A stretch of DNA of 64,000 nucleotides from positions 5,867-69,866 of the forward strand of contig JAHBUK010000002.1 in assembly GCA_019638115.1 (NCBI GenBank), given 5' to 3'. This stretch comes from Flavobacteriales bacterium. GTDB lineage: Bacteria; Bacteroidota; Bacteroidia; Flavobacteriales_F; PHOS-HE28. Positions 415-55,648 of this stretch are shown one piece after another. Position 1 is the first letter of the stretch; each line of letters begins with the position of its first letter. The position numbers and the translations under genes are program-made. Below the pieces are notes generated by a model. The model made no database searches and had not been told where the DNA came from. It saw only the letters and a list, made by a program, of their open reading frames with translations.

Positions 415-903
415 TCAGGGCCTGAAGGTGTACGGCGCACCGTTGATCAGGAAACTGTGCGAACGCGTCTTCCCGCCGGCTTCCAGGTGTACCACGTTCT
501 CCTGCTCATCGAAGAGGTCCTGCAGCAGCGTGTTGTGGACCGTGAGCGCGCCCAACGTAGGGATGCCCTCCACCTGCAGGTAGCAGTACAGGTCGTCGAA
601 CTCCACTTGCTTGCCGAGGTAGCGCGGCTCGATCGGCTGGCCGTCCATGCTCAGCTTCAGGTGCCGCAGGAGGTACCCGGCGATGAGGCTGTCGGCCTCG
701 GGCAGTTCGCGTTCGGTACCCAGTTTCAGGTCGCGGTCACCGCTCTCGCTCAACAGCGTGTGCTCGATGTCGTGGGTCGTCATCCGCCAGGTGATGTCCA
801 GCGTGCGGGTCTCCGGGTTGTGCCGGATGGTGCAGATGGAGACGTAGAAGTCGTGCAGGAGCAGCGCTCCGATCGACCCCAGTGCAAGGAGCAAGGTCTT
901 CAT
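415..903 (-). CDS. secreted hypothetical protein (DUF6702-like, begins HDFYVS after signal peptide)
   Basis: The ORF trimmed to the MKTLLLALGSIGALLL signal peptide. The mature N-terminus HDFYVSICTIRHNPE resembles Bacteroidota DUF6702 proteins that often neighbour M1 peptidases. Confidence 0.55.
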   Translation of the reverse strand: MKTLLLALGSIGALLLHDFYVSICTIRHNPETRTLDITWRMTTHDIEHTLLSESGDRDLKLGTERELPEADSLIAGYLLRHLKLSMDGQPIEPRYLGKQVEFDDLYCYLQVEGIPTLGALTVHNTLLQDLFDEQENVVHLEAGGKTRSHSFLINGAPYTFRP

Positions 904-921
904 GTACCGCAAAGTTGGGGA

Positions 922-1058
922 GTAGTGGCGAGTGGCGAGTATCGAGTGGCGAGTGAATGCCCCCATCAAAAACGTTCGTCACAGGGGCATTCACTCGCCA
1001 CTCGGCGGGCAGACCAGCGCGCGGGCACTCGCCACTCGCCACTCAAGACTCGCCACTA
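922..1058. repeat. composite palindromic element: tandem GTGGCGA heptamers - AATGCCCCC...GGGGCATT core - inverted tandem heptamers
   Basis: The arms gtggcgagtggcgagtatcgagtggcgagtg and cactcgccactcg...cactcgccactcgccactc are seen directly. The same element type recurs at 19075-19185. Confidence 0.75.
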
Positions 1059-1069
1059 TCTTCGCCAAC

Positions 1070-3391
1070 ATGCATTGGAAGTACGCCCTCCCGGCCCTCG
1101 CCCTCATCGCCATCTGCACGACCGCCCTCGCCCAGGACTCCCCCCGCTACGGACGCGACAAGTTCCGCCAGCTGGAATGGGAACTGCCCACGCCCAACAC
1201 CTATCGCACGGCCAGCGGCGCACCCGGCCACCAGTACTGGCAGCAGAAGGCCGACTACGACATCCGCGTGGAGCTCGACGACGACAAGCAGACCATCACC
1301 GGCAGCGAGACCGTCACCTACTACAACTACAGTCCCGACAAGCTCGATTACCTCTGGATCCAACTGGACCAGAACATGCGCGCCAAGGACAGTGACAGCC
1401 ACAAGATCCGCACGGGCACCCTCAGCGATTCCATGTCGGTGGAACAGCTGGCCCGCATGGTGGACGTGTTCGACGGTGGCTTCCGCATCACCAAGGTCAC
1501 CGATGCCAGCGGCAAGGCGCTGAAGTACACCATCAACAAGACCATGATGCGCATCGACCTGCCGCGCACCTTGGCGCCCAACGCCTCCTACAGCTTCAAG
1601 ATCGATTGGTGGTACCCCATCAACGACCGCATGAAGTACGGCGGCCGCTCGGGCATGGAGTACTTCGAGGAGGACGGCAACTACATCTACACCATCGCGC
1701 AGTTCTTCCCGCGCATGGCCCTTTACGCCGACTATCAGGGCTGGCAGCACAAGCAGTTCCTCGGCCAGGGCGAGTTCACCCTCACCTTTGGCGACTACAA
1801 GGTGGCCATCACCGTGCCGAGCGACCACATCGTCACCGCCACCGGCACGCTGCAGAACGAAAGTGCCGTGCTCACCGCCACCCAACGCGAACGCCTTGGC
1901 CGCGCCCGCATGGCCCGTGAACCGGTGATGATCGTGACCGAAGCCGAGGCCCGCGAAGCCGAAAAGAAGAAGGCCACCGGCAAGAAAACGTGGGTCTTCC
2001 AAGCGAAGAACGTGCGCGACTTCGCCTTCGCCAGCAGCCGCAAGTTCATCTGGGACGGCATGAACCAGCCCGTGGGCGGCAACAACGTGCTGTGCATGAG
2101 CCTCTATCCCAAGGAGGGCAATCCGCTGTGGGAGCGGTACAGCACCAAGGTGGTGGCCCACACCGTGAAGACCTACAGCAAGTACACGGTGGATTACCCG
2201 TACCCCGTGTGCATCAGCGTACACACCGACCGCATCGGCATGGAGTACCCCATGCTCAGCTTCAACGGCGGGCGGCCGGAGAAGGACGGCACCTACAGCG
2301 AACGCACCAAGTACGGCATGATCGGCGTGATCATCCACGAGGTAGGGCACACCTTCTTCCCGATGATCATCAACAGCGACGAGCGGCAGTGGACTTGGAT
2401 GGACGAGGGCCTGAACACCTTCGTGCAGTACCTCACCGAGCAGGAGTGGGACCACGACTACCCCAGCCGCCGCGGGCCCGCACGCCACATCGTGGACTAC
2501 ATGAAGGGCGACAAGAGCGGCATTGAGCCCATCATGACCAACAGCGAGAGCATCACCCAGTTCGGCAACAACGCATACGGAAAGCCCGCCACCGCGCTCA
2601 ACATCCTGCGCGAAACGGTGATGGGTCGCGAGCTCTTCGACCACGCCTTCAAGACCTACTGCGAGCGCTGGAAGTTCAAGCACCCCACGCCGGCCGACTT
2701 CTTCCGCACCATGGAGGACGCCAGCGCCGTGGACCTTGACTGGTTCTGGCGCGGCTGGTTCTTCACCACCGACCATGTGGACATCGCCCTCACCAACCTG
2801 CGCTACATGCAGGTAAAGCCGCTTGACCCCAAGGCCCGTGAAGAACTCGCCCGCAGCGACCGCGCCGCGCAGCCACGTGAACTGGGCAACGAGCGCAACC
2901 GCGAAGCCTTCGAGACCGTGGTGATGCGCGACCCCGCCACCCGCGACTTCTACAACAGCTACGACCCGCTCACCGCCACGCCACGCATGCAGGAGGCCTA
3001 CGACCGCATGATGGCGCGCCTCACGCCCGATGAGAAAGCCCTGCTGGAGCGCGACCTGCACTTCTACGAGCTCAGCTTCGAGAACATCGGTGGGCTGGTG
3101 ATGCCGCTGATCCTGGAGTGGACCTACGCCGATGGCAGCACCGAGATCGAGCGCATCCCCGCCGAGATCTGGAAGACCAGCGACCGCATCAGCAAGGTCT
3201 TCATCAAGGAGAAGGAAGCTACCGGCGTGGTGCTCGATCCCTTCCTGGAGACCGCCGATACCGACCTGAACAACAACGCCTGGCCTCCGAGGATGGCGCC
3301 GACAAGGTTCGATGTGTTCAAGCGCGGGGAGTGGAGGGGTGGAAGGCCGAATCCCATGCAGGAGGGGCAGGGAGCGGGGAGCGGGCGCTGA
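1070..3391 (+). CDS. M1 family zinc metallopeptidase (aminopeptidase N-like), secreted
   Basis: It has the signal peptide MHWKYALPALALIAICTTALAQD. It has the HEVGH...(18 aa)...E zincin motif (IIHEVGHTFFPMIINSDERQWTWMDEGLNTF). It is about 773 aa. Confidence 0.85.
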   Translation: MHWKYALPALALIAICTTALAQDSPRYGRDKFRQLEWELPTPNTYRTASGAPGHQYWQQKADYDIRVELDDDKQTITGSETVTYYNYSPDKLDYLWIQLDQNMRAKDSDSHKIRTGTLSDSMSVEQLARMVDVFDGGFRITKVTDASGKALKYTINKTMMRIDLPRTLAPNASYSFKIDWWYPINDRMKYGGRSGMEYFEEDGNYIYTIAQFFPRMALYADYQGWQHKQFLGQGEFTLTFGDYKVAITVPSDHIVTATGTLQNESAVLTATQRERLGRARMAREPVMIVTEAEAREAEKKKATGKKTWVFQAKNVRDFAFASSRKFIWDGMNQPVGGNNVLCMSLYPKEGNPLWERYSTKVVAHTVKTYSKYTVDYPYPVCISVHTDRIGMEYPMLSFNGGRPEKDGTYSERTKYGMIGVIIHEVGHTFFPMIINSDERQWTWMDEGLNTFVQYLTEQEWDHDYPSRRGPARHIVDYMKGDKSGIEPIMTNSESITQFGNNAYGKPATALNILRETVMGRELFDHAFKTYCERWKFKHPTPADFFRTMEDASAVDLDWFWRGWFFTTDHVDIALTNLRYMQVKPLDPKAREELARSDRAAQPRELGNERNREAFETVVMRDPATRDFYNSYDPLTATPRMQEAYDRMMARLTPDEKALLERDLHFYELSFENIGGLVMPLILEWTYADGSTEIERIPAEIWKTSDRISKVFIKEKEATGVVLDPFLETADTDLNNNAWPPRMAPTRFDVFKRGEWRGGRPNPMQEGQGAGSGR

Positions 3392-3624
3392 GCGCAATAA
3401 GCACCTGATGGACGAAGCCGGGCTGCTGCCACAGTGGTACGCCCATCAGGACCAACGGCTGTGGGAGGAGCTGGAGGCATGGGTGGAGGAACACGGCCTG
3501 AAGCTGGCCGAAGGGTGAAGCCGAGCCGGTCCCCGGACGCTTGAGCGCTGCGCACGGCCGGATGCCGATCCATTGGGATGGGCCGGTCATGGTCCATGAT
3601 ACCCCAGCAATAACAGGCACTTTG

Positions 3625-3678
3625 GAAGAACCGCAGCCAAATGTGCCATCTGAAGCACACATTTGGCTGCGGATAACC
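3625..3678. repeat. hairpin repeat copy 1 (stem ccgcagccaaatgtgcc / ggcacatttggctgcgg)
   Basis: This is a perfect roughly 18-bp inverted repeat with a roughly 14-nt loop. Three copies share the stem sequence. Confidence 0.75.
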
Positions 3679-3840
3679 ACGGCCGGCGGATGGGTGAAAG
3701 GGCGAGCGCATGCTGCTGGTAAGGCATGCTGGGGGAATGCCCGGCACGAACGATGCTCCAAAGCCGACCGATGGCCGGACAGGCATTGCGGACCATCCAT
3801 ATATCTGGGTTCGTAAGTGCTTGTATTTATTGGGTGTTCA

Positions 3841-3893
3841 GAAGAACCGCAGCCAAATGTGCCATCATGAGCATACATTTGGCTGCGGATAAA
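3841..3893. repeat. hairpin repeat copy 2, immediately upstream of ATPase gene
   Basis: gaagaaccgcagccaaatgtgccatcatgagcatacatttggctgcggataaaag is near-identical to copy 1. Confidence 0.75.
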
Positions 3894-3906
3894 AGACTTG
3901 CACATC

Positions 3907-5322
3907 ATGCTTATCGGCCGGGAAGAGGAGCGCGACATTCTCCTGGATGCCTTGTCATCCGGGCATTCCGAGCTGATCGCCATCTATGGAAGACGGCGCA
4001 TCGGCAAGACTTACCTGATCCGCGAAGTGTATGCCGGCAAGGTGGACTTCGAGTTCTCGGGCATGCACCGGGGCACGCTCCGGCAGCAGCTCAAGAACTT
4101 CCACCTGGTGCTGCCCGCACGGCTGCGCAAGGGTGGCCCGCCCACCGACTGGCTGGATGCCTTCGCGCTCCTGGGGCGCTACATCGACGGACTTCGAAGC
4201 AAGCGGAAGAAGGTGCTCTTCATCGATGAGTTCCCATGGCTGGACACTCACCGGAGCGGTTTCCTGGCCGCCTTCAGCCACTTCTGGAACGGCTACTGCA
4301 GCAAGCGGAAGGACATCGTGGTGGTGATCTGCGGGTCGGCGGCCAGCTACATGGTGCAGCGCGTGGTGAACAACAAGGGCGGACTGCACAACCGGCTTAC
4401 ACGGCGGATCCGACTGGCACCCTTCAACCTGCGCGAGACGGAGCAAATGCTGCAACACAGGAAGGTGCGGTTCACACGCTACGATATCATACATCTGTAC
4501 ATGGCGCTCGGCGGAGTGCCCTACTATCTGCAACTGCTGAAACGGGGCGAAAGCATGGCCCAGGCCGTCGACCGGCTGTGCTTCCAGCCGCAGGGCTTCC
4601 TGCGTGGAGAGTTCCACAACGTGTTCGCCTCGCTGTTCGACCATGCCGGCAACCACGAGGCCATCGTACGTGCATTGGCCGGTGTGCGCAAGGGCCTCAC
4701 ACGCACCGCCATCCTGCGCAAGAGCAAGGTGTCGTCTGGTGGCACCCTCACCAAGACGCTCAGTGAACTGGAGGAGTCGGGCTTCATAGAGAAGTATGTG
4801 CCCTACGATGCGAAGAAGGACCCGTTGTACCGCATAACGGATGAGTACACGCAGTTCTACCTGCGCCATGTGGAGGGCGGCAAACCGGTAAGGCGCGCCT
4901 ACTGGGCAAAGGAGATGGGTACACCAGCTTATCGGGCTTGGAGCGGATTCACCTTCGAGACCATCTGCATGAAGCATGTGGAGCAGATCAAGGCGGCGCT
5001 GGGCATCCAGGGTGTGCGCTCCACGGAGGGTAGTTGGATCGGCAAGGGCGATGAAAGCGGTGCACAGGTGGATCTGCTCATAGACCGCGACGACAACGTG
5101 ATCAACCTCTGTGAGATGAAGTTCGCGAACGGGCCCTTCACCATCGACAAGAAGTATGCGAAGGACCTGATGGCCAAGAGCGAGGCATTCCGTTCATCCA
5201 CGCGTTCGAGGAAGAGCATCTTCATCACTTTCGTAACCACCCATGGTGTGGCTCAGAACGCGTACAGCAGCCAGTTGGTGCAGAACGATGTGCGCATGGA
5301 GGCTCTTTTCGAGGAGTATTAA
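3907..5322 (+). CDS. AAA family ATPase (Arch_ATPase/ATPase_2 + DUF234-type ATP-binding protein)
   Basis: It has Walker A GRRRIGKT and Walker B VLFIDEF. The overall architecture matches the widespread 'ATP-binding protein' PF01637+PF03008 family. A TTG start at 3898 is an alternative. Confidence 0.8.
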   Translation: MLIGREEERDILLDALSSGHSELIAIYGRRRIGKTYLIREVYAGKVDFEFSGMHRGTLRQQLKNFHLVLPARLRKGGPPTDWLDAFALLGRYIDGLRSKRKKVLFIDEFPWLDTHRSGFLAAFSHFWNGYCSKRKDIVVVICGSAASYMVQRVVNNKGGLHNRLTRRIRLAPFNLRETEQMLQHRKVRFTRYDIIHLYMALGGVPYYLQLLKRGESMAQAVDRLCFQPQGFLRGEFHNVFASLFDHAGNHEAIVRALAGVRKGLTRTAILRKSKVSSGGTLTKTLSELEESGFIEKYVPYDAKKDPLYRITDEYTQFYLRHVEGGKPVRRAYWAKEMGTPAYRAWSGFTFETICMKHVEQIKAALGIQGVRSTEGSWIGKGDESGAQVDLLIDRDDNVINLCEMKFANGPFTIDKKYAKDLMAKSEAFRSSTRSRKSIFITFVTTHGVAQNAYSSQLVQNDVRMEALFEEY

Positions 5323-5368
5323 CCGCAGCCAAATGTGGCATTCAAGAGGCACATTTGGCTGCGGTTAA
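5321..5368. repeat. hairpin repeat copy 3, overlapping ATPase stop codon; lies between convergent genes
   Basis: aaccgcagccaaatgtggcattcaagaggcacatttggctgcggtt has the same stem family. It likely acts as a bidirectional terminator. Confidence 0.7.
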
Positions 5369-5410
5369 TTGGAATGCCATGCGGCACGAGGATTGGTAAA
5401 ATGCGTTTCC

Positions 5411-6274
5411 TTAGCCCACCACCCACAAAACTCCCTTCTCCAGCCGGAACCGCACTTCATGCCCGATCTCCATCGGCTCGCCATCCAGGTGGGCCAGCGT
5501 ACCGCCCTGCTTCACGTACGCGTTGGTGGCCGGGATGTTGAGCAGGTTGGGGTTGCTGTCCGCGCGGTGGGTGTACACGTCGTAGAAGGCCTTCACCAGT
5601 TGGAAGAACGGTGGCTTACGGACAAGGCGCAATTCCGCGATGCCATCGTCAGGCTTGGAAGAAGGGCTTATGTCCGCGCCATTGCCGAACTCGCGGGTGT
5701 TGCAGAACACGAGCATCAGCACATCTTCCTTGATCGTTTTGCCATCCACGGTCAGTTCAATGGGCATGGGGGGCGTACCGAAGATGTCCTGCACGGTGAT
5801 GCGCGCATAGGTGAACATGCCGCGCGTGCGGCTCTTGTCGAACTTGTCCGCCACACGCGCATCGAAGCCGATGCCTGCGGTGCCGAGGAAGGGATGCTCG
5901 TTGAGGTAGCAGACATCCATGCGTTTGGGTGTTCCGCTGAAGGCGTGGCGCAATGCAGGCTCGGGCTTCAGGGGCAGGCCGATGGAGCGCGCATAACCGT
6001 TGCCACTGCCCATGGCCACGATACCCAGCGCCACGTTGGTGCCGATGAGGCCTGCGGCGATGGCGTTGTTGGTACCATCGCCACCTACGCTGATCACGCG
6101 TTCGCAACCGCTCGCAACGGCCTCCTTCGCCAGGGCGGTGCCGTGTCCCGGTCCTTCCACGGTGCGGATGTCGAGTTGCACCCCCATTTCCGCAGCAATG
6201 CGTTCGGCAAGGGCACGCACCGTAAGCGCCTGCTTCTTCCCCGAGCGGGGATTCATCACCAGCATCGCTTTCAT
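5411..6274 (-). CDS. diacylglycerol kinase catalytic-domain lipid kinase (YegS/DagK family)
   Basis: It has the MKAMLVMNPRSGKK N-terminus and the GGDGT motif (VISVGGDGTNNAIAAGL). Its start overlaps the stop of the upstream LtaS-like gene. Confidence 0.8.
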   Translation of the reverse strand: MKAMLVMNPRSGKKQALTVRALAERIAAEMGVQLDIRTVEGPGHGTALAKEAVASGCERVISVGGDGTNNAIAAGLIGTNVALGIVAMGSGNGYARSIGLPLKPEPALRHAFSGTPKRMDVCYLNEHPFLGTAGIGFDARVADKFDKSRTRGMFTYARITVQDIFGTPPMPIELTVDGKTIKEDVLMLVFCNTREFGNGADISPSSKPDDGIAELRLVRKPPFFQLVKAFYDVYTHRADSNPNLLNIPATNAYVKQGGTLAHLDGEPMEIGHEVRFRLEKGVLWVVG

Positions 6275-8181
6275 TCCGAAGCGGGTTGTGCCACCAACGC
6301 GCCGCGCATCAGGTGGTGGTTGAATTGTTGGATGGCGGCTTTCAAGCGTTGCTCCAGGTTGGTGGCCATGGCCGTACGTGCCTCTTCGCTCAGTGTGTCG
6401 TCGATCATGCGCTGGTCCACCACACGTTCTCCATCGAATTGCAGTTGCATGTGCGCGTTGGTGATGGAGTAGATGCCGTTGGCCGACCAGATGGCCACGC
6501 CCTGATGCGTGTTGCGCAGGGCGCTGCTGCCGAAGCTGAACACGGGTCGTTGCTGCCCTGTGAGATCGAGCACTGTGGGCAGGATGTCGATGTGCTGGGT
6601 GACCGCATCGCGCGCTTCGCCCACCAAGGGGTTGGGATGCTCCGATACTGCAACACCAGGTGCGTAGTAGAGTAGCGGCACCCAGTAGTCGATCGGCAGG
6701 TCGCCGTGTGCACCGGTGCGTTCCAGATCGGCGGTATGGTCGGCGGTGATCACGAACAAGGTGTTGGCATACCAAGGCATGGTGCGCGCCGTGGCGAAGA
6801 ACTGGCGCAGCGCATCATCGGTGTAGCGCAACGTGGGGTGGATGGCCTGTGTGCCTCCTGCGAAACGTTCGGCCTCTTCCTTGGGCAGGCGGTAGGGGTG
6901 GTGGCTGCTCAGTGTGAACACCGTGCTGAGGAAGGGTTCCTGTTCCTTGGCCAACTCTTGCGCCCAGAACTGCAGGAAGGGCCGGTCGCGGATGCCCCAG
7001 TTGCCATCGTAGTCCTCCTTACCGTTGGGGTATTCATCCATGCCCACATAGCGCTGGAAGCCCGCCGAGCGCGTGAAACCATCGAAGCCCATGGTGCCAT
7101 TGCGTCCCCCGTGGTAGAAGCTGGTGTGGTAGCCATCGGCCGCGAAAACACTGGCCAGTGAGGTGAAAGGGATGCTGGCGTAGCGGGAGGTGAGGAAGGC
7201 CTCGTCCATCAGTTCGGGCATGCTGGCGAGGATGGCCGGCACGCCGTCGATGCTGCGGCGCCCGTTGGCATAGGCCCGGGTGAAATTGAGGCTGTGGCCC
7301 ATCAGGGAATCAAGGAAGGGCATGTAGCCCTCGCCGCCCGAAAGGGTGCCGCTGTAAGCTGCGGAGAAGCTTTCCAGGATGATGACCACGACGTTGGGCT
7401 TGCGAGTGGAGGCCGTGTACTCGAAGGGCTGGTGCTCCCTGTTGGGCTGATGCACCACGGGCCACAGGCGATCGGCTTCCTCACGGGGCATGTAGATGCG
7501 CTCCTCCAAGCTGGGCTTGCCGATGCTCATGAGCATGGTGTAGGGCGTGTTGAGCACCACGGGCAGGTTGGCGGCCCCGCCATATCGCGCGCCATCCAAG
7601 GGTTGCAGCGGAATGAGCTGGGTGCCCCCCCGCGAGGCCAGTACCACCAACGCAATGGCAAGCACCCGCCAGCCGATCCGCCAGGGTAGTTTGATCGTGT
7701 CCCCCTTATCCAAGCGTCCGATGCGGCGGTAGCCCCAGGCCACAAGTACCATGGCCACTGCGAAGGCCAGCAGCAGGTACCAGTAGTCGCGCAGGAAGGC
7801 CGGGACCAGGTTGAGCATGTCGCCACCGGCCCCGATGATGTTGAAGAGGTCGCTGGTGCTGCGCTTGAGGGTGAAGGCGTAATAGCCGACATCCACGGTG
7901 TTGAGGAGAAGCCCCAAGGCGCTGGCAACCAGGAAGAAGGCCAGTTGGATGCGTTCCATGCCGGTGCCGGGGCGTGGGGAGAACAGCACCAGCAGCAGCC
8001 AAGGCAGGTACAACCATGCGATGGCGAACAGGTCGAAGCGCATGCCGCCGAGGTATGCCGTGAGCGGCACATCGGGGAAGAGTGCGGCATTGTGCCACAC
8101 GAAGAGCAGGCGCAGCAGGGTGTACAGCGCGGCCACCAGCCCCAGTCGGAGCAGCAGTACGGACAGGGGACCGACGCGCAT
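6271..8181 (-). CDS. LTA synthase family protein / sulfatase (alkaline-phosphatase superfamily, N-terminal polytopic membrane domain)
   Basis: It has about five N-terminal TM helices, then a sulfatase-like domain (VVVIILESFSAAYSG, SSHHPY, ITADHT). I chose the start at MRVGPLSVLLL. The longer ORF to 8529 looks like non-coding leader. Confidence 0.75.
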   Translation of the reverse strand: MRVGPLSVLLLRLGLVAALYTLLRLLFVWHNAALFPDVPLTAYLGGMRFDLFAIAWLYLPWLLLVLFSPRPGTGMERIQLAFFLVASALGLLLNTVDVGYYAFTLKRSTSDLFNIIGAGGDMLNLVPAFLRDYWYLLLAFAVAMVLVAWGYRRIGRLDKGDTIKLPWRIGWRVLAIALVVLASRGGTQLIPLQPLDGARYGGAANLPVVLNTPYTMLMSIGKPSLEERIYMPREEADRLWPVVHQPNREHQPFEYTASTRKPNVVVIILESFSAAYSGTLSGGEGYMPFLDSLMGHSLNFTRAYANGRRSIDGVPAILASMPELMDEAFLTSRYASIPFTSLASVFAADGYHTSFYHGGRNGTMGFDGFTRSAGFQRYVGMDEYPNGKEDYDGNWGIRDRPFLQFWAQELAKEQEPFLSTVFTLSSHHPYRLPKEEAERFAGGTQAIHPTLRYTDDALRQFFATARTMPWYANTLFVITADHTADLERTGAHGDLPIDYWVPLLYYAPGVAVSEHPNPLVGEARDAVTQHIDILPTVLDLTGQQRPVFSFGSSALRNTHQGVAIWSANGIYSITNAHMQLQFDGERVVDQRMIDDTLSEEARTAMATNLEQRLKAAIQQFNHHLMRGALVAQPASE

Positions 8182-8623
8182 GGCGGCGAAGATCGGCACA
8201 AGGTGCCGATCGTAGGGGCGGACGATCGTCCGCCCGCCGCCATACACCAGAAAGACGATCGTTCGCCCGCCGCAGTGCGCAGGACCAAGCCGTAACACCA
8301 CATTCAGCAGCAAGATGTAAGCACGAACGTGGGCCCCGCGCCCGGGATGGAAGCGGCGGCTGGCCGTAGGACGGGCCATGGCAGGGCGTGGAGCGAGGAG
8401 GCCCCGACGGTAGGAGGGGACCCCGGAGCCCCGCCATGCCAGGACCGGACAAGGACACCACAGCGGACAGCCCGATAAGGCGCCCCGAGCAACATCCACA
8501 ACCCGGTGCTGGTATCTGTGCTGTACCAAGCGAGTTGCAGATGTAACGCAGATACCTTTGCCGCACCATTCGGATACCGAAGATCATTTTCTGATCTTCT
8601 GATCGTCCGATCATCTGATCGAC

Positions 8624-10675
8624 ATGTCCCTCGAAGCCACCGAAAAACGCCAGCTCACCTACGAGCGCGGCAACCACAGCGACGCTTTCCTCATCAGCAC
8701 CTACGAGAAGCTGGTGTACCCGCGCATCATCGAAGAGAAGATGCTGAGCCTGCTGCGGCAGGGCAAGATCAGCAAGTGGTTCAGCGGCATCGGGCAGGAG
8801 GCCATCGCCGTGGGCGCCACCATGGCCCTGCAGGACGACGAGTACATCCTGCCCATGCACCGCAATCTGGGCGTATTCACCACGCGGGGCATGCCTTTCC
8901 GCAAGCTGTTCGCGCAGTGGCAGGGCAAGGCCACGGGCTACAGCAAGGGCCGCGAGCGAAGCTTCCACTTCGGCAGCCAGGAGCACAAGGTGGTGGGCAT
9001 GATCAGCCACCTTGGGCCGCAGATGGGCATCGCCGATGGCATCGCGCTGGCCCACAAGCTTAAGAAGGAGAACCGCTGCACCATCGTCTTCACCGGCGAT
9101 GGCGCCACGAGCGAGGGCGATTTCCACGAGAGCGTGAACGTGGCGGCGGTGTGGGACCTGCCCGTGCTGTTCATCATTGAGAACAACGGCTACGGACTGA
9201 GCACGCCCAGCAGCGAGCAGTTCCGCATGAAGCAGTTCACCGACAAGGCCATCGGCTATGGCATCGAAACGGTACAACTGGCGGGCAACAACATCTTGGA
9301 GGTGTACGACGCCCTGGCGTGGTGGGCCAACAGCGTGCGCGAGAACCCGCGTCCGGTGCTGATCGAATGCATGACCTTCCGCATGCGCGGTCACGAAGAG
9401 GCCAGCGGCACCAAGTACGTTCCCAAAGAGCTGTTCGAGGAGTGGGGCAGGAAGGATCCCGTGGCCAACTACGAGAATTGGCTGGTGGCGACGGGTGTGC
9501 TGACCATTGCCCAGAAGGACGAGATCCGTGCGCGGCTGAAGGACGGCATCGAAGCCGATCTGAAGGTGGCGTTCGAGGAGCCGGAACCGGTGCCGGTGGA
9601 AACCGCTGAGGTTGGGGACGTGTATGCAAATTCCGCCACTGGCCTATTGCCGCTGGCTACTGGCCCCTTGGAGGATCGGGCCAGTAGCCAGCAGCCAATA
9701 GCCATTGGCGAGTCCCGCGAGATCAGAATGATCGACGCCATCCAGGAAGGCATGCGTCAAAGCATGGAACGCCACCCGGAATTGGTGCTGATGGGCCAGG
9801 ACATCGCCGAGTACGGCGGGGCCTTCAAGATCACGGACGGTTTCGTGGAGAAGTTCGGCAAGGACCGGGTGCGCAATACGCCGCTGTGCGAGAGCGCCAT
9901 CCTGGGTGCGGCGCTGGGCCTCAGCATCAAGGGCATGAAGGCCATGATGGAGATGCAGTTCGCCGATTTCGTGAGCGAGGGTATGACCCAGATCTGCAAC
10001 AACCTGGCGAAGATCCATTACCGCTGGGGGCAGCACGCCGATGTGGTGGTGCGCATGCCCACTGGCGCCGGAGTGGGGGCGGGGCCCTTCCACAGCCAGA
10101 GCAACGAGATGTGGTTCGTGAAGACGCCCGGCCTGAAGGTGGTGTACCCCAGCAACCCCTACGACGCCAAGGGCCTGCTGATGACCGCCTTCGACGACCC
10201 GAACCCGGTGATGTTCTTCGAGCACAAAGCGATGTACCGCAGTATCAGCGGACCGGTGCCTGAGCAGCCGTACAGCATACCCTTCGGCAAGGCGCGGGTG
10301 GTGCGCGAGGGCAGCGACCTGAGCATCATCACATACGGAATGGGTGTGCATTGGGCGACGGCCGTGCAGGAGGAGACGGGCATCAGCATGGACATCATCG
10401 ACCTGCGTACGCTCGTACCCTTGGACGTGGAGACCATCCTCGCCAGCGTGAAGAAGACCGGTAAGGTGCTGCTGCTGCACGAGGACACACTGACCGCCGG
10501 TTTCGGTGGCGAGCTGGCGGCCATCATCGCAGAGCAGGCCTTCGAGTACCTGGATGCCCCGATCATGCGTGTGGCCAGCTGGGATACGCCGGTGCCCTTC
10601 GCGGTGCCGTTGGAGCAGGGTTTCCTGCCGAAGGGACGGTTGAGGGAGGCGGTGGAACGGTTGGCGGGGTATTAG
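8624..10675 (+). CDS. fused alpha/beta E1 component of a 2-oxoacid (pyruvate/branched-chain) dehydrogenase, TPP-dependent
   Basis: The N-terminal half is E1-alpha-like (TPP motif region GDGATSEGDFHESVN). The C-terminal half is E1-beta-like (LVLMGQDIAEYGGAFKIT..., FEHKAMYR). This fusion is common in Bacteroidota. Confidence 0.85.
   Translation: MSLEATEKRQLTYERGNHSDAFLISTYEKLVYPRIIEEKMLSLLRQGKISKWFSGIGQEAIAVGATMALQDDEYILPMHRNLGVFTTRGMPFRKLFAQWQGKATGYSKGRERSFHFGSQEHKVVGMISHLGPQMGIADGIALAHKLKKENRCTIVFTGDGATSEGDFHESVNVAAVWDLPVLFIIENNGYGLSTPSSEQFRMKQFTDKAIGYGIETVQLAGNNILEVYDALAWWANSVRENPRPVLIECMTFRMRGHEEASGTKYVPKELFEEWGRKDPVANYENWLVATGVLTIAQKDEIRARLKDGIEADLKVAFEEPEPVPVETAEVGDVYANSATGLLPLATGPLEDRASSQQPIAIGESREIRMIDAIQEGMRQSMERHPELVLMGQDIAEYGGAFKITDGFVEKFGKDRVRNTPLCESAILGAALGLSIKGMKAMMEMQFADFVSEGMTQICNNLAKIHYRWGQHADVVVRMPTGAGVGAGPFHSQSNEMWFVKTPGLKVVYPSNPYDAKGLLMTAFDDPNPVMFFEHKAMYRSISGPVPEQPYSIPFGKARVVREGSDLSIITYGMGVHWATAVQEETGISMDIIDLRTLVPLDVETILASVKKTGKVLLLHEDTLTAGFGGELAAIIAEQAFEYLDAPIMRVASWDTPVPFAVPLEQGFLPKGRLREAVERLAGY
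9635..9708. repeat. imperfect ~30-bp inverted repeat (hairpin) located in-frame in the E1 alpha-beta linker
   Basis: ccactggcctattgccgctggctactggcc ... ggccagtagccagcagccaatagccattgg encodes the linker TGLLPLATGPLEDRASSQQPIAIG. Confidence 0.65.
10601..10675. repeat. direct repeat copy 1 (native 3' end of E1 gene)
   Basis: The 75 bp gcggtgccgttggagcagggtttcctgccgaagggacggttgagggaggcggtggaacggttggcggggtattag is repeated about 90% identical at 11225-11299. Confidence 0.8.
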
Positions 10676-55515: not shown

Positions 55516-55648
55516 GGCTGAAGGCGCGTGTGGCAGGCCGAAGCTAACGAAAGTGCTGCGCCGCGTCCGTGCTGTTGAAGCGCTGGTATTGGAACTGAAA
55601 AGGGCCGCACCAACGCGGTACGGCCCTTTTCACGACGAGCATCGGAGA

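What the first reader, a model, noticed from the sequence alone, without database searches (positions are those of the whole stretch)
3625..5368. Three copies of a perfect hairpin repeat bracketing the DUF234 AAA-ATPase gene
The hairpin has an 18-bp stem (CCGCAGCCAAATGTGCC) and a roughly 14-nt loop. It occurs at 3625-3678 and 3841-3893, both upstream, and at 5321-5368, overlapping the stop. The ATPase gene is thus flanked like a cassette. The downstream copy also sits between convergent genes, where it would work as a bidirectional terminator. DUF234/Arch_ATPase genes are multicopy and of unknown function in Bacteroidota. Flanking repeats could mediate their duplication or mobility.
Basis: seen in the sequence. 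Interest (0 to 1): 0.5.

Follow-up and report, generated by a model that had tools for sequence, protein, structure and literature searches.

The report
Conserved palindromic sites bracketing ATPase-nuclease gene
The three hairpins are real, but they are not a scattered or mobile repeat: they are a strongly conserved two-half-site DNA motif that travels with one family of uncharacterised ATPase-nuclease genes (a proposed phage-defence family) across several bacterial phyla, and is most likely where that protein binds to control its own gene.

Summary
Three copies of CCGCAGCCAAATGTG-N12-CACATTTGGCTGCGG lie at 3631-3672, 3847-3888 and 5323-5364, and nowhere else in the window. Stems are 15, 14 and 20 bp, not 18.

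The gene (3907-5322) encodes an AAA+ ATPase, a winged helix and a PD-(D/E)xK nuclease domain. It gives a full-length match to PADLOC candidate PDC-S27.

The motif is not a dispersed repeat. Across 185,579 species genomes the hairpin pattern hits 8 loci, and 7 of them abut a homolog of this ATPase. In 22 loci with homologs of at least 41% identity, GCCAAA-N19/20-TTTGGC occurs only beside that gene. Arms are 96-97.5% identical where ORFs are 70-84% and loops 40-49%. Outer arm bases change symmetrically, and in the same way in the upstream and downstream copies of a locus.

The gene-proximal upstream arm always forms the Bacteroidota -7 box TAnnTTTG. In a gammaproteobacterium it forms a sigma-70 -35 hexamer.

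Homologs in Chlamydiota, Verrucomicrobiota, Bacillota and other Bacteroidota carry their own half-site variants, often as two tandem palindromes plus a lone half-site.

Best reading: operators bound by the ATPase itself. Binding is inferred, not shown.

Gene plus hairpins is a 2 kb indel against the nearest relative, which keeps no hairpin. The terminator and mobility ideas are not supported.

The parts
3625..3676 (.). Copy 1: distal upstream palindrome. Arms are 3631-3645 / 3658-3672 with a 12-nt loop. It has no TA of a -7 box (reads CACATTTGG). Read as an auxiliary operator and a paralog of copy 2.
   Evidence: The 52-nt core is 92% identical to copy 2. Its loop is of the 'upstream type' seen in orthologs. 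Flanks show no significant similarity to the copy 2 flanks. The relative L009 shows a clear 256-bp tandem duplication of hairpin plus 5' ORF, 2.6 copies at 76% identity.
3841..3892 (.). Copy 2: promoter-proximal palindrome. Arms are 3847-3860 / 3875-3888. Read as an operator overlapping the ATPase promoter.
   Evidence: An orthologous site lies upstream of the start codon (about 20-60 nt, depending on the start chosen) in all Flavobacteriales loci.
3874..3881 (+). TACATTTG, a match to the Bacteroidota sigma-A -7 box TAnnTTTG, formed by the inner end of the right arm of copy 2. The predicted TSS is near 3886, giving a 5' UTR of about 21 nt.
   Evidence: The TA is present in the gene-proximal upstream arm in 17 of 17 loci that carry both an upstream and a downstream site; the TA-defining A is present in only 7 of 50 other arms. 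It is also present in all 20 Bacteroidota loci whose upstream site was captured. The -7 box spans -12 to -5 (PMC9723704). The TSS is inferred, not measured.
3907..5322 (+). ATPase gene, 471 aa. AAA+ domain with Walker A GRRRIGKT and Walker B FIDEF (aa 1-~240), winged helix (aa ~247-325), PD-(D/E)xK nuclease-like domain (aa ~340-471; E351, D389, E403, K405).
   Evidence: Pfam ATPase_2. PADLOC PDC-S27, E 1.2e-192, full length. AF2 model pLDDT 91.9. Foldseek: 2qen, Orc1/Cdc6-DNA 2qby, NLR/STAND proteins. C-terminal domain model pLDDT 92.2 matches restriction-endonuclease-like folds (1y88, NucS 2vld, R.BspD6I, LmuA, Cas4-like). Invariant catalytic residues.
5317..5369 (.). Copy 3: downstream palindrome. 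Arms are 5318-5337 / 5350-5369 with a 12-nt loop. The stop codon TAA (5320-5322) is embedded in the left arm. Read as a second operator; a 3' hairpin role is possible in addition.
   Evidence: An orthologous site lies 0-15 nt after the stop in all Bacteroidota homologs of at least 58% identity. No T-run terminator is found.
3373..5414 (.). Extent of the indel relative to the nearest relative L036, where about 35 bp separate the convergent M1 peptidase and DAG-kinase-like genes.

Best explanation
The hairpins are copies of a family-specific, dyad-symmetric cis-element that belongs to the ATPase gene's own module.

Anatomy (shown): each copy is two half-sites of about 15-19 bp. The consensus is TTAnnnGyAGCCAAA(TGTG) and its complement. 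The cores GCCAAA and TTTGGC are held 19-20 bp apart.

Binding (inferred): the sites are read as double-stranded DNA by the gene's own product, an Orc1/Cdc6-like AAA+ plus winged-helix protein with a C-terminal PD-(D/E)xK nuclease domain.

Upstream site (copy 2): it overlaps the promoter, and its inner right arm supplies the -7 box TACATTTG. Occupancy would therefore repress transcription, giving negative autoregulation of a potentially toxic ATPase-nuclease.

Copy 1: an extra upstream operator made by local duplication.

Copy 3: a second operator placed exactly at the stop codon. Together with the promoter site it could let an oligomeric ATPase loop or bracket the 1.5 kb gene, or block convergent transcription. 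In this GC-rich lineage it would also fold as a 3' mRNA hairpin.

Shown: specificity of the motif to this gene family, its selective constraint, dyad and up/down co-variation, promoter overlap, and the protein's domain content. Inferred: that the ATPase is the binder, and that the outcome is repression or looping.
For: 1. Exclusivity. The pattern GCAGCCAAATGT-N10-20-ACATTTGGCTGC hits only 8 loci in 185,579 species genomes. Seven of them abut an ATPase homolog, including a gammaproteobacterium whose protein is 41% identical. The generic GCCAAA-N17-21-TTTGGC motif occurs in 260 kb of fetched loci only beside the ATPase gene, 46 sites in 22 loci.

2. Constraint on sequence, not just structure. 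Among 8 genomes the arms are 96-97.5% identical and the loops 40-49%, while the ORFs are 70-84% identical at DNA level. The core hexamers are invariant in 39 of 39 aligned sites.

3. Dyad co-variation. 91.9% of cells are paired, 9 of 18 pairs change on both sides, and slid controls give about 35%. Upstream and downstream sites of one locus share the same variant: mean Hamming distance 1.44 against 3.71 permuted, with 0 of 10,000 permutations as low.

4. Features a hairpin does not explain. The half-site spacing is constant at 19-20 bp even where the spacer is not self-complementary, as in the AT-rich loci L015-L019. Lone third half-sites occur in L003, L031, L034, L035 and L041. An everted half-site order occurs in L026, L027, L030, L040 and L041.

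5. Promoter overlap appropriate to each phylum. TAnnTTTG sits in the proximal arm in 20 of 20 Bacteroidota loci. In L034, TTGACA-17-CATAAT (11 of 12) has its -35 inside the right arm of the second palindrome, and a half-site follows directly after the -10.

6. Clade-specific half-sites accompany diverged proteins. Examples are CAGCGAAATCTA (Chlamydiales), TAGCCGAATCT (Verrucomicrobia), GGGCAAAATGTA (L035), TTTGGCGGAAT (Emticicia and Butyrivibrio plasmids) and GTGGTGCCAAAA (Segatella). Upstream inverted repeats beat shuffles (0-1 of 200) in 13 of 19 distant loci.

7. The protein has a DNA-binding architecture: AAA+ plus winged helix resembling DNA-bound Orc1/Cdc6, plus a nuclease fold.

8. The ATPase is the only gene common to all these loci.
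Against: - No binding data exist.
- Winged-helix / recognition-helix identity does not track half-site sequence. L034 shares the site but not the T-K residues that the window protein shares with L003 (inconclusive).
- A 26-bp centre-to-centre half-site distance is unusual for simple dimeric winged-helix repressors.
- The role of the downstream site is unexplained by simple autorepression. That site is absent outside Bacteroidota, where two tandem sites sit upstream instead.
- In GC-rich Flavobacteriales the inner arm (TGTG/CACA) is also conserved and makes an unusually long perfect hairpin. A structural (cruciform or RNA) role therefore cannot be excluded.
- L002 keeps both palindromes although its ORF has an in-frame stop at invariant W111. 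This could be a recent pseudogene or a MAG error.
- The most distant homologs (Paracaedimonas, Wolbachia WO, Malaciobacter, Haloarcula) show no significant inverted repeat by the objective test.
Confidence: 0.6

Rival explanations
1. Cassette ends or recombination sites. The palindromes are the termini of a mobile or excisable unit. They are acted on by the PD-(D/E)xK nuclease/ATPase itself or by a host recombinase, and so mediate insertion, excision, inversion or duplication of the gene.
For: - Gene plus hairpins is a 2.04 kb indel against the nearest relative L036.
- The same palindrome-gene-palindrome unit lies in a second context, M20 peptidase / RecQ, in L001 and L007. DNA homology to the window starts and ends at the palindromes, 3833/3845 to 5373/5377.
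- Family members occur on plasmids and in a Wolbachia WO prophage.
- Local duplications of the hairpin region occur in the window (copy 1) and in L009.
Against: - The locus M1 peptidase - ATPase - DAG kinase - sulfatase is syntenic across many species. ATPase divergence (65-89% aa) parallels that of its neighbours, which indicates vertical descent.
- The empty site in L036 retains no solo palindrome and no footprint.
- No solo palindrome was found in any Flavobacteriales genome in the 185,579-species genome scan.
- No transposase or integrase is consistently nearby.
- Non-Bacteroidota homologs have both palindromes upstream and none downstream, so the sites cannot be element termini there.
- Up and down loops evolve as separate orthologous lineages, so there is no concerted evolution.
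Confidence: 0.12
2. Structural hairpins acting at the RNA level. The downstream copy would be a bidirectional terminator or a 3' stabiliser for the convergent ATPase and DAG-kinase transcripts. The upstream copies would terminate the M1 peptidase transcript.
For: - The hairpins are very stable, -26 to -36 kcal/mol with z-scores of -4 to -8.
- Copy 3 lies between convergent genes, immediately after the stop codon.
- Pairing is maintained through compensatory changes.
Against: - No T-run follows, and the terminator scan finds none in 3300-5700.
- Stem sequence, not just pairing, is conserved far above the coding-sequence level and across phyla.
- Up and down copies share the same sequence variant within a locus.
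- In AT-rich relatives the inner 18-20 nt are unpaired.
- Lone half-sites exist.
- The predicted TSS lies inside the right arm of the upstream copy, so that hairpin is not in the ATPase mRNA.
- There is no Rfam match.
Confidence: 0.1
3. Binding sites for a different, host-encoded regulator (a regulon operator) that happens to control this gene.
For: The sites are palindromic two-half-site motifs that overlap the promoter. Nothing directly shows which protein binds.
Against: - The same core motif accompanies the gene in Bacteroidota and Gammaproteobacteria, and diverged variants accompany it in four further phyla, with no other shared gene.
- The exact pattern occurs nowhere else in the species-representative genomes that carry it, including the 2.9 Mb contig that holds L003.
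- There is no other copy in the 64 kb window.
Confidence: 0.08
4. A generic dispersed repeat (REP/BIME or MITE) that happens to lie near this gene.
For: Short intergenic perfect palindromes are the hallmark of REP elements.
Against: There are only 2-3 copies per genome, all at this gene. The pattern hits 8 loci in 185,579 species genomes. There are no copies elsewhere in the window or in 260 kb of related loci.
Confidence: 0.02

Closest known systems
Archaeal Orc1/Cdc6 with origin recognition boxes (ORB)
   Same: An AAA+ plus winged-helix protein; the Foldseek hits include the DNA-bound Orc1/Cdc6 heterodimer 2qby. Inverted sequence-specific boxes lie next to the protein's own gene and flank a short spacer that is often AT-rich. 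Sites come in multiples.
   Different: This protein carries an extra C-terminal PD-(D/E)xK nuclease domain. The sites overlap a promoter and the stop codon of a bacterial chromosomal gene. There is no evidence of origin function. The half-site sequences are unrelated to ORB. The resemblance is of fold and layout only, and membership is not claimed.
Autoregulatory operators of restriction-modification controller (C) proteins and similar self-repressed defence or toxin genes
   Same: Tandem palindromic operators lie just upstream of, and overlap, the promoter of the gene whose product binds them. The operators move with the gene between phyla, and specificity diverges between clades.
   Different: C proteins are small HTH dimers that regulate separate effector genes. 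Here the presumed binder is the roughly 470-aa ATPase-nuclease effector itself. Half-sites are 26 bp apart centre to centre. In Bacteroidota one operator is placed at the 3' end of the gene, with the stop codon embedded in it.
Lambda CI OL-OR long-range looping, and ParB-parS
   Same: In lambda, operators bracket the regulator's own gene region and are bridged by an oligomer. In ParB-parS, an NTPase with an HTH is loaded at palindromes adjacent to its own gene.
   Different: There is no homology and no evidence of looping or sliding here. These are offered only as mechanistic analogies for the site-gene-site layout.
REP/BIME elements, MITEs, integron attC sites, IS200/IS605 subterminal hairpins
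   Same: All are short intergenic imperfect or perfect palindromes, and some flank genes like cassettes.
   Different: The motif here is not dispersed. There is no RAYT/TnpA, no IntI, and no GTTRRRY core. Its sequence is conserved across phyla, whereas attC conserves structure rather than sequence. Position relative to one gene family is fixed.
PADLOC PDC-S27 (phage defence candidate; ATPase_2 + DUF234)
   Same: The window protein is a full-length member by HMM, E 1.2e-192.
   Different: PDC-S27 is defined by protein only. The papers found and read here describe no cis-element. One heterologous test in E. coli B gave no protection against T4, T5 or T7 (10.1101/2024.09.26.614923).

Membership tests
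PADLOC PDC-S27 / Pfam ATPase_2 (PF01637) ATPase family | Full-length match to the family HMM | tested here: met
   PDLC04984 PDC-S27, E 1.2e-192, aa 2-468 against profile positions 4-473 of 474. ATPase_2 scores 56.4 bits against a cutoff of 33.2.
PADLOC PDC-S27 / Pfam ATPase_2 (PF01637) ATPase family | C-terminal DUF234 (PF03008) PD-(D/E)xK domain | tested here: inconclusive
   The window protein gives no DUF234 hit at E<=0.01. Homologs P0126 (28.7 bits) and P0094 (25.8 bits) pass the 22.5-bit cutoff. The C-terminal model matches restriction-endonuclease-like folds at a best E of 6.8e-4. E351, D389 and E403 are invariant, and K405 is at least 90% conserved.
PADLOC PDC-S27 / Pfam ATPase_2 (PF01637) ATPase family | Anti-phage activity | not testable with these tools
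   The family is candidate only (10.1101/2024.01.29.577857). One representative gave no protection in E. coli B. Neighbours here are housekeeping genes, not a defence island.
Autoregulatory operator | Dyad-symmetric site overlapping the gene's own promoter | tested here: met
   A TAnnTTTG -7 box lies in the proximal arm in 20 of 20 Bacteroidota loci. In L034 a sigma-70 promoter (11 of 12) has its -35 in the arm and a half-site after the -10. The promoters are consensus matches, not mapped TSSs.
Autoregulatory operator | Site sequence co-varies with the regulator across lineages and is unique to its gene | tested here: met
   Clade-specific half-sites. Exclusivity to the gene. Within-locus up/down co-variation.
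Autoregulatory operator | Physical binding by the gene product, and repression | not testable with these tools
   This needs EMSA or footprinting and reporter assays. The recognition-helix co-variation test was inconclusive.
REP/BIME or MITE | Many dispersed copies per genome at unrelated intergenic sites | tested here: not met
   2-4 copies per locus, all at the ATPase gene.
Intrinsic (rho-independent) terminator | GC-rich stem with a short loop, followed by a T-run | tested here: not met
   No terminator-like site is found in 3300-5700. Loops are 12-20 nt, and the tails are TTAATTGGAATG and TTAATACTCCTC.
Integron attC cassette | IntI/attI nearby, cassette array, R''/R' core sites (RYYYAAC / GTTRRRY), structure conserved rather than sequence | tested here: not met
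   Neighbours are an M1 peptidase and a DAG-kinase-like gene. Copy 3 ends in GGTTAATT, which does not fit GTTRRRY. Sequence is conserved across phyla.
IS200/IS605-type element (subterminal hairpins) | Y1 transposase TnpA and/or TnpB between distinct left and right hairpins | tested here: not met
   The only gene between the hairpins is the ATPase. Both ends carry the same palindrome.
Orc1/Cdc6 initiators | AAA+ plus winged-helix fold | tested here: met
   Foldseek gives 2qby_A at E 3e-9 and 1w5t at E 1e-8. The best hit overall is 2qen, E 3e-13, TMt 0.66.
Orc1/Cdc6 initiators | Sequence homology to Orc1/Cdc6, and function at a replication origin | not tested
   phmmer finds no PDB sequence hit. 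No origin features were examined. Membership is not claimed.
Rfam RNA families | Match to any covariance model at gathering score | tested here: not met
   0 matches in the whole window.

The most novel reading that the evidence does not exclude
The palindromes are more than repressor sites. They are assembly or loading sites for an ORC-like AAA+ oligomer carrying a nuclease, which brackets its own gene (promoter and stop codon). The chromosome-bound state would then both set expression and keep the nuclease parked or inactive. Perturbation such as phage infection, a change in supercoiling, cruciform extrusion of the perfect palindromes, or decoy DNA would release or activate it. If so, the half-site catalogue found here would be the first recognition code and the first cis-component for the widespread but uncharacterised PDC-S27 / ATPase_2-DUF234 family.
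Probability: 0.15. Interest if true: 0.8.

Novelty: new variant of a known kind. Interest (0 to 1): 0.55.

Why it matters
ATPase_2/DUF234 (PDC-S27) proteins are among the more abundant candidate defence genes in bacteria and archaea. One survey counted about 8,000 systems (PMC12988326). They have no known mechanism, ligand or target.

This work gives the family a concrete DNA motif that is more conserved than the protein itself, is positioned on its own promoter, and diverges clade by clade. That makes the family directly testable in three ways:
- It predicts what the winged-helix or nuclease domains recognise.
- It suggests that expression is self-limited, which may explain the failed heterologous test.
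- It supplies natural protein/site pairs for working out specificity.

It also warns annotators that 'cassette-like' flanking hairpins can be operators rather than mobility signals.

Tried and rejected
- **Winged-helix co-variation.** I tested whether winged-helix or recognition-helix identity tracks half-site identity better than overall identity does. The result was inconclusive: the window and L003 share T-K at the helix N-terminus, but L034 has the same site and lacks it.
- **Origin of copy 1.** I tested whether the flanks of window copy 1 are a decayed copy of the copy 2 flanks or 5' ORF. They are not significant (z 0.3-0.7), and only the 52-nt core is similar. The tandem-duplication origin is demonstrable only in L009.
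- **L004.** This Saccharibacteria locus was the only motif hit without an ATPase. It has different geometry, a long contiguous hairpin with a 19-nt inner segment, so I treat it as a likely chance match.
- **PDB sequence search.** phmmer found no hits.
- **Rfam.** No hits.
- **tRNA.** None found.
- **Literature.** Searches for PABY2304, COG1672 and DUF234 turned up no functional or cis-element data.
- **Most distant homologs.** Alphaproteobacterial plasmid, Wolbachia WO, Campylobacterota plasmid and haloarchaeal plasmid homologs show no significant inverted repeat by the shuffle test. By eye, direct or imperfect repeats are visible in the first three.
- **L003 sigma-70 promoter.** TTGACA is present, but the tool supports no -10.
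- **Variable DNA between the ATPase and its neighbours (L002, L005, L013).** ORFs there have no Pfam hits, so there is no sign of a defence island.
Full report
**Observation**

The three repeats are real. The repeat finder returns one 52-nt family at 3625-3676, 3841-3892 and 5317-5368. The exact arm CCGCAGCCAAATGTG or its complement occurs six times in the 64 kb window, all within these three hairpins.

The perfect stems are 15 bp (copy 1), 14 bp plus a G.T pair (copy 2) and 20 bp (copy 3). Loops are 12-14 nt. All three fold far better than shuffles, with z-scores of -4.1 to -7.9.

The stop codon TAA at 5320-5322 lies inside the extended stem of copy 3. Only five perfect hairpins of 14 nt or more exist in the window, and three of them are these. 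Rfam and tRNA scans are negative.

**The gene**

ORF 3907-5322 (471 aa) hits Pfam ATPase_2. It also gives a full-length match to PADLOC PDC-S27, E 1.2e-192.

An AlphaFold2 model (pLDDT 91.9) resembles the Pyrococcus Walker-type ATPase 2qen, DNA-bound Orc1/Cdc6 and STAND/NLR proteins. This means an AAA+ domain, a lid and a winged helix.

The C-terminal 142 residues, modelled alone (pLDDT 92.2), match restriction-endonuclease-like folds: AF1548, NucS, R.BspD6I, LmuA and Cas4-like proteins. E351, D389 and E403 are invariant and K405 is nearly so across 47 homologs from several phyla. Some homologs pass the DUF234 cutoff and show a weak HTH_34 signal.

PDC-S27 is an untested 'guilt-by-embedding' candidate. 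It has been described as an ATPase fused to a PD-(D/E)xK domain (PMC12988326). One representative gave no protection in E. coli B.

The neighbours in the window are an M1 peptidase (+) and a convergent DAG-kinase-like gene (-), followed by a sulfatase.

**Not a dispersed repeat**

A scan of one genome for each of 185,579 species with GCAGCCAAATGT-N10-20-ACATTTGGCTGC found only 8 loci. In 7 of them a homolog of this ATPase lies directly beside the motif. Six are Flavobacteriales MAGs, all with one palindrome upstream and one just after the stop. One is a gammaproteobacterium (protein 41% identical) with two tandem palindromes upstream.

The eighth locus (Saccharibacteria) has a different geometry and no ATPase. 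It is probably a chance match.

A protein-based metagenome scan gave 22 more loci at 43-87% identity. Across about 260 kb of fetched DNA, the relaxed motif GCCAAA-N17-21-TTTGGC occurs 46 times in 22 loci. All occurrences are beside the ATPase gene and none is elsewhere.

**What is conserved**

The cores GCCAAA and TTTGGC are invariant in 39 of 39 aligned sites. They are 19-20 bp apart in 46 of 46 sites.

Among eight genomes whose ORFs are 70-84% identical at DNA level, the arms are 96-97.5% identical. The loops are 40-49% identical. The arms are therefore under stronger constraint than the coding sequence, while the loops drift.

Outer-arm positions change symmetrically (GCAGCC, GTGGCC, CCAGCC, GTAGCC). 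Overall 91.9% of cells are paired, 9 of 18 pairs change on both sides, and slid controls give about 35%.

The upstream and downstream copies within one locus carry the same variant. Mean Hamming distance is 1.44 against 3.71 for permuted loci, with 0 of 10,000 permutations as low. Their loops nevertheless follow separate orthologous lineages. This argues against gene conversion and for a shared trans-acting reader.

In AT-rich Bacteroidota the inner 18-20 nt are not self-complementary, yet the half-sites TTATAAGTAGCCAAA / TTTGGCTACTTATAA and their spacing persist.

**Promoter overlap**

In all 20 Bacteroidota loci with a captured upstream site, the gene-proximal arm reads TAnnTTTGGC. Among the 17 loci that carry both an upstream and a downstream site, the TA is present in that arm in 17 of 17. 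The TA-defining A occurs in only 7 of 50 other arms.

TAnnTTTG is the sigma-A -7 box of Flavobacteria and spans -12 to -5 (PMC9723704). In the window this is TACATTTG at 3874-3881. It predicts a TSS near 3886 and a 5' UTR of about 21 nt (inference).

In the Berkiellales locus L034 a sigma-70 promoter, TTGACA-17-CATAAT (11 of 12), has its -35 inside the right arm of the second palindrome. A lone third half-site starts right after the -10. L003 has the same TTGACA overlap but no tool-supported -10.

**Distant relatives**

Homologs fetched from other clades have the same architecture with different half-sites:

| Locus / clade | Half-site arrangement |
|---|---|
| Chlamydiales (L031) | CAGCGAAATCTA...TAGATTCCGCTG, twice, plus a half-site |
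| Verrucomicrobia (L033) | TAGCCGAATCT...AGATTCGGCTG, plus a second palindrome |
| L035 | GGGCAAAATGTA...GGATTTTGCC, twice, plus a half-site |
| Emticicia plasmid | TATATTTGGCGGAAT-N17-ATTCCGCCAAGTATA |
| Butyrivibrio plasmid | TTTTGGCGGAATATA-N12-TATATTCCGCCAAAA, plus a half-site |
| Segatella plasmid | GTGGTGCCAAAA...TTTTGGCACCAC |

Tandem palindromes repeat every 51-52 bp. Some clades have the half-sites in everted order (L026, L027, L030, L040, L041).

A shuffle test finds significant upstream inverted repeats (0-1 of 200 shuffles) in 13 of 19 distant loci. It finds none in the Paracaedimonas, Wolbachia WO, Malaciobacter or Haloarcula loci. The ATPase is the only gene common to all these loci.

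**Synteny, indel and extra copies**

The order M1 peptidase - ATPase - DAG kinase - sulfatase recurs in the window and in L002, L005, L006, L008, L009 and L011-L014. Divergence of the ATPase is comparable to that of its neighbours. This indicates vertical descent.

L001 and L007 carry the same palindrome-gene-palindrome unit between an M20 peptidase and RecQ. DNA similarity to the window begins and ends at the palindromes.

The nearest relative over the flanks is L036 (M1 peptidase 89% nt identity). It has the two convergent neighbours separated by about 35 bp, with no ATPase and no hairpin. The 2.04 kb segment 3373-5414 is therefore an indel, but it leaves no solo palindrome.

Window copy 1 shares only its 52-nt core with copy 2, at 92% identity. 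Its flanks are not detectably related. In L009 a 256-bp unit comprising the hairpin and the 5' ORF is tandemly repeated 2.6 times at 76% identity, with the stems preserved. Local duplication of the operator region evidently recurs, and the palindrome survives while its surroundings decay.

**Interpretation**

The evidence fits protein-binding half-sites read on duplex DNA better than a structural hairpin, a terminator or a mobile repeat. The relevant observations are:
- exclusivity to one gene family;
- sequence-level constraint;
- up/down co-variation within loci;
- constant half-site spacing;
- lone and everted half-sites;
- overlap with promoters appropriate to each phylum.

The motif follows the ATPase across phyla with no other shared gene, and the protein has an Orc1/Cdc6-like AAA+ plus winged-helix body. 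The most economical binder is therefore the ATPase itself, giving negative autoregulation.

The 3' site, with the stop codon embedded in it, is specific to Bacteroidota. It is not explained by simple repression. Looping or bracketing by an oligomer, a transcriptional roadblock against the convergent gene, or an added 3' hairpin role are all possible.

Binding and its outcome are inferred, and the recognition-helix co-variation test was inconclusive. I put about 0.95 on 'a gene-family-specific functional cis-element, not REP/MITE/terminator' and about 0.6 on 'operator bound by its own ATPase'.

**Comparison and novelty**

In layout the system works like Orc1/Cdc6 with ORB boxes, like RM controller-protein operators, or like lambda OL-OR bracketing. 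It is not a member of any of these. The membership features of REP, MITE, attC, IS200/IS605 and intrinsic terminators were tested and not met.

No cis-element is described for PDC-S27 or ATPase_2-DUF234 in the literature I could search. That search covers open-access papers only.

I rate it a new variant of a known kind: an operator-like element with an unusual reader and a gene-bracketing layout. It is of moderate interest because it gives an abundant, uncharacterised candidate-defence family a testable DNA recognition motif.

Noticed in passing
window 943-1004: Another perfect hairpin: 21-nt arms CGAGTGGCGAGTGAATGCCCC / GGGGCATTCACTCGCCACTCG with a 20-nt loop. It lies about 55 nt upstream of the likely M1 peptidase start and is conserved in the relative L036 (81% over 59 nt).
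   Followed up: no
window 9634-9710: Long imperfect hairpin with 33-nt arms, 82% complementary, and an 11-nt loop.
   Followed up: no
window 55596-55632: GC-rich 16-nt stem, TGAAAAGGGCCGCACC / GGTACGGCCCTTTTCA, flanked by A and T runs. It looks like a classic bidirectional terminator, in contrast to the ATPase hairpins.
   Followed up: no
L002 4502-4504 (JBGTAJ010000134.1): The ATPase ortholog (88% identical) has an in-frame TGA replacing the invariant W111 (TGG in the window), while both palindromes are intact. This could be a pseudogene or a MAG error.
   Followed up: partly
window 424-10000 vs L036: Mosaic identity. The M1 peptidase is 89% and 8637-10000 is 87% identical to L036, but DAG kinase-sulfatase is only 74%. 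ATPase-DAG kinase-sulfatase is 81.6% identical to L008. This suggests that the segment carrying the ATPase was replaced by recombination.
   Followed up: partly
L009 2901-3558: A 256-bp unit (upstream region, palindrome and first ~100 nt of the ATPase ORF) is tandemly repeated 2.6 times at 76% identity. The stems are preserved in all copies and the ORF fragments have decayed.
   Followed up: yes
window 5411-6775 (-): The DAG-kinase-like ORF is over-long at 454 aa. All homologs are about 287 aa, so the real gene is about 5411-6274 and abuts the sulfatase gene.
   Followed up: partly
L044 1489-2952 (Wolbachia phage WO, MN180249.1): A 40% identical homolog sits inside a WO prophage, between head-tail connector genes and other phage genes. 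It is annotated 'archaeal ATPase, fused to C-terminal DUF234 domain'. Two ~35-nt direct repeats lie just upstream.
   Followed up: partly
L004 647-693 (Saccharibacteria MAG): The palindrome ATGCAGCCAAATGTATGAACAC-TAC-GTGTTCGCACATTTGGCTGCGC shares the 12-nt core but has no ATPase homolog within 8 kb. It is likely a chance match.
   Followed up: partly
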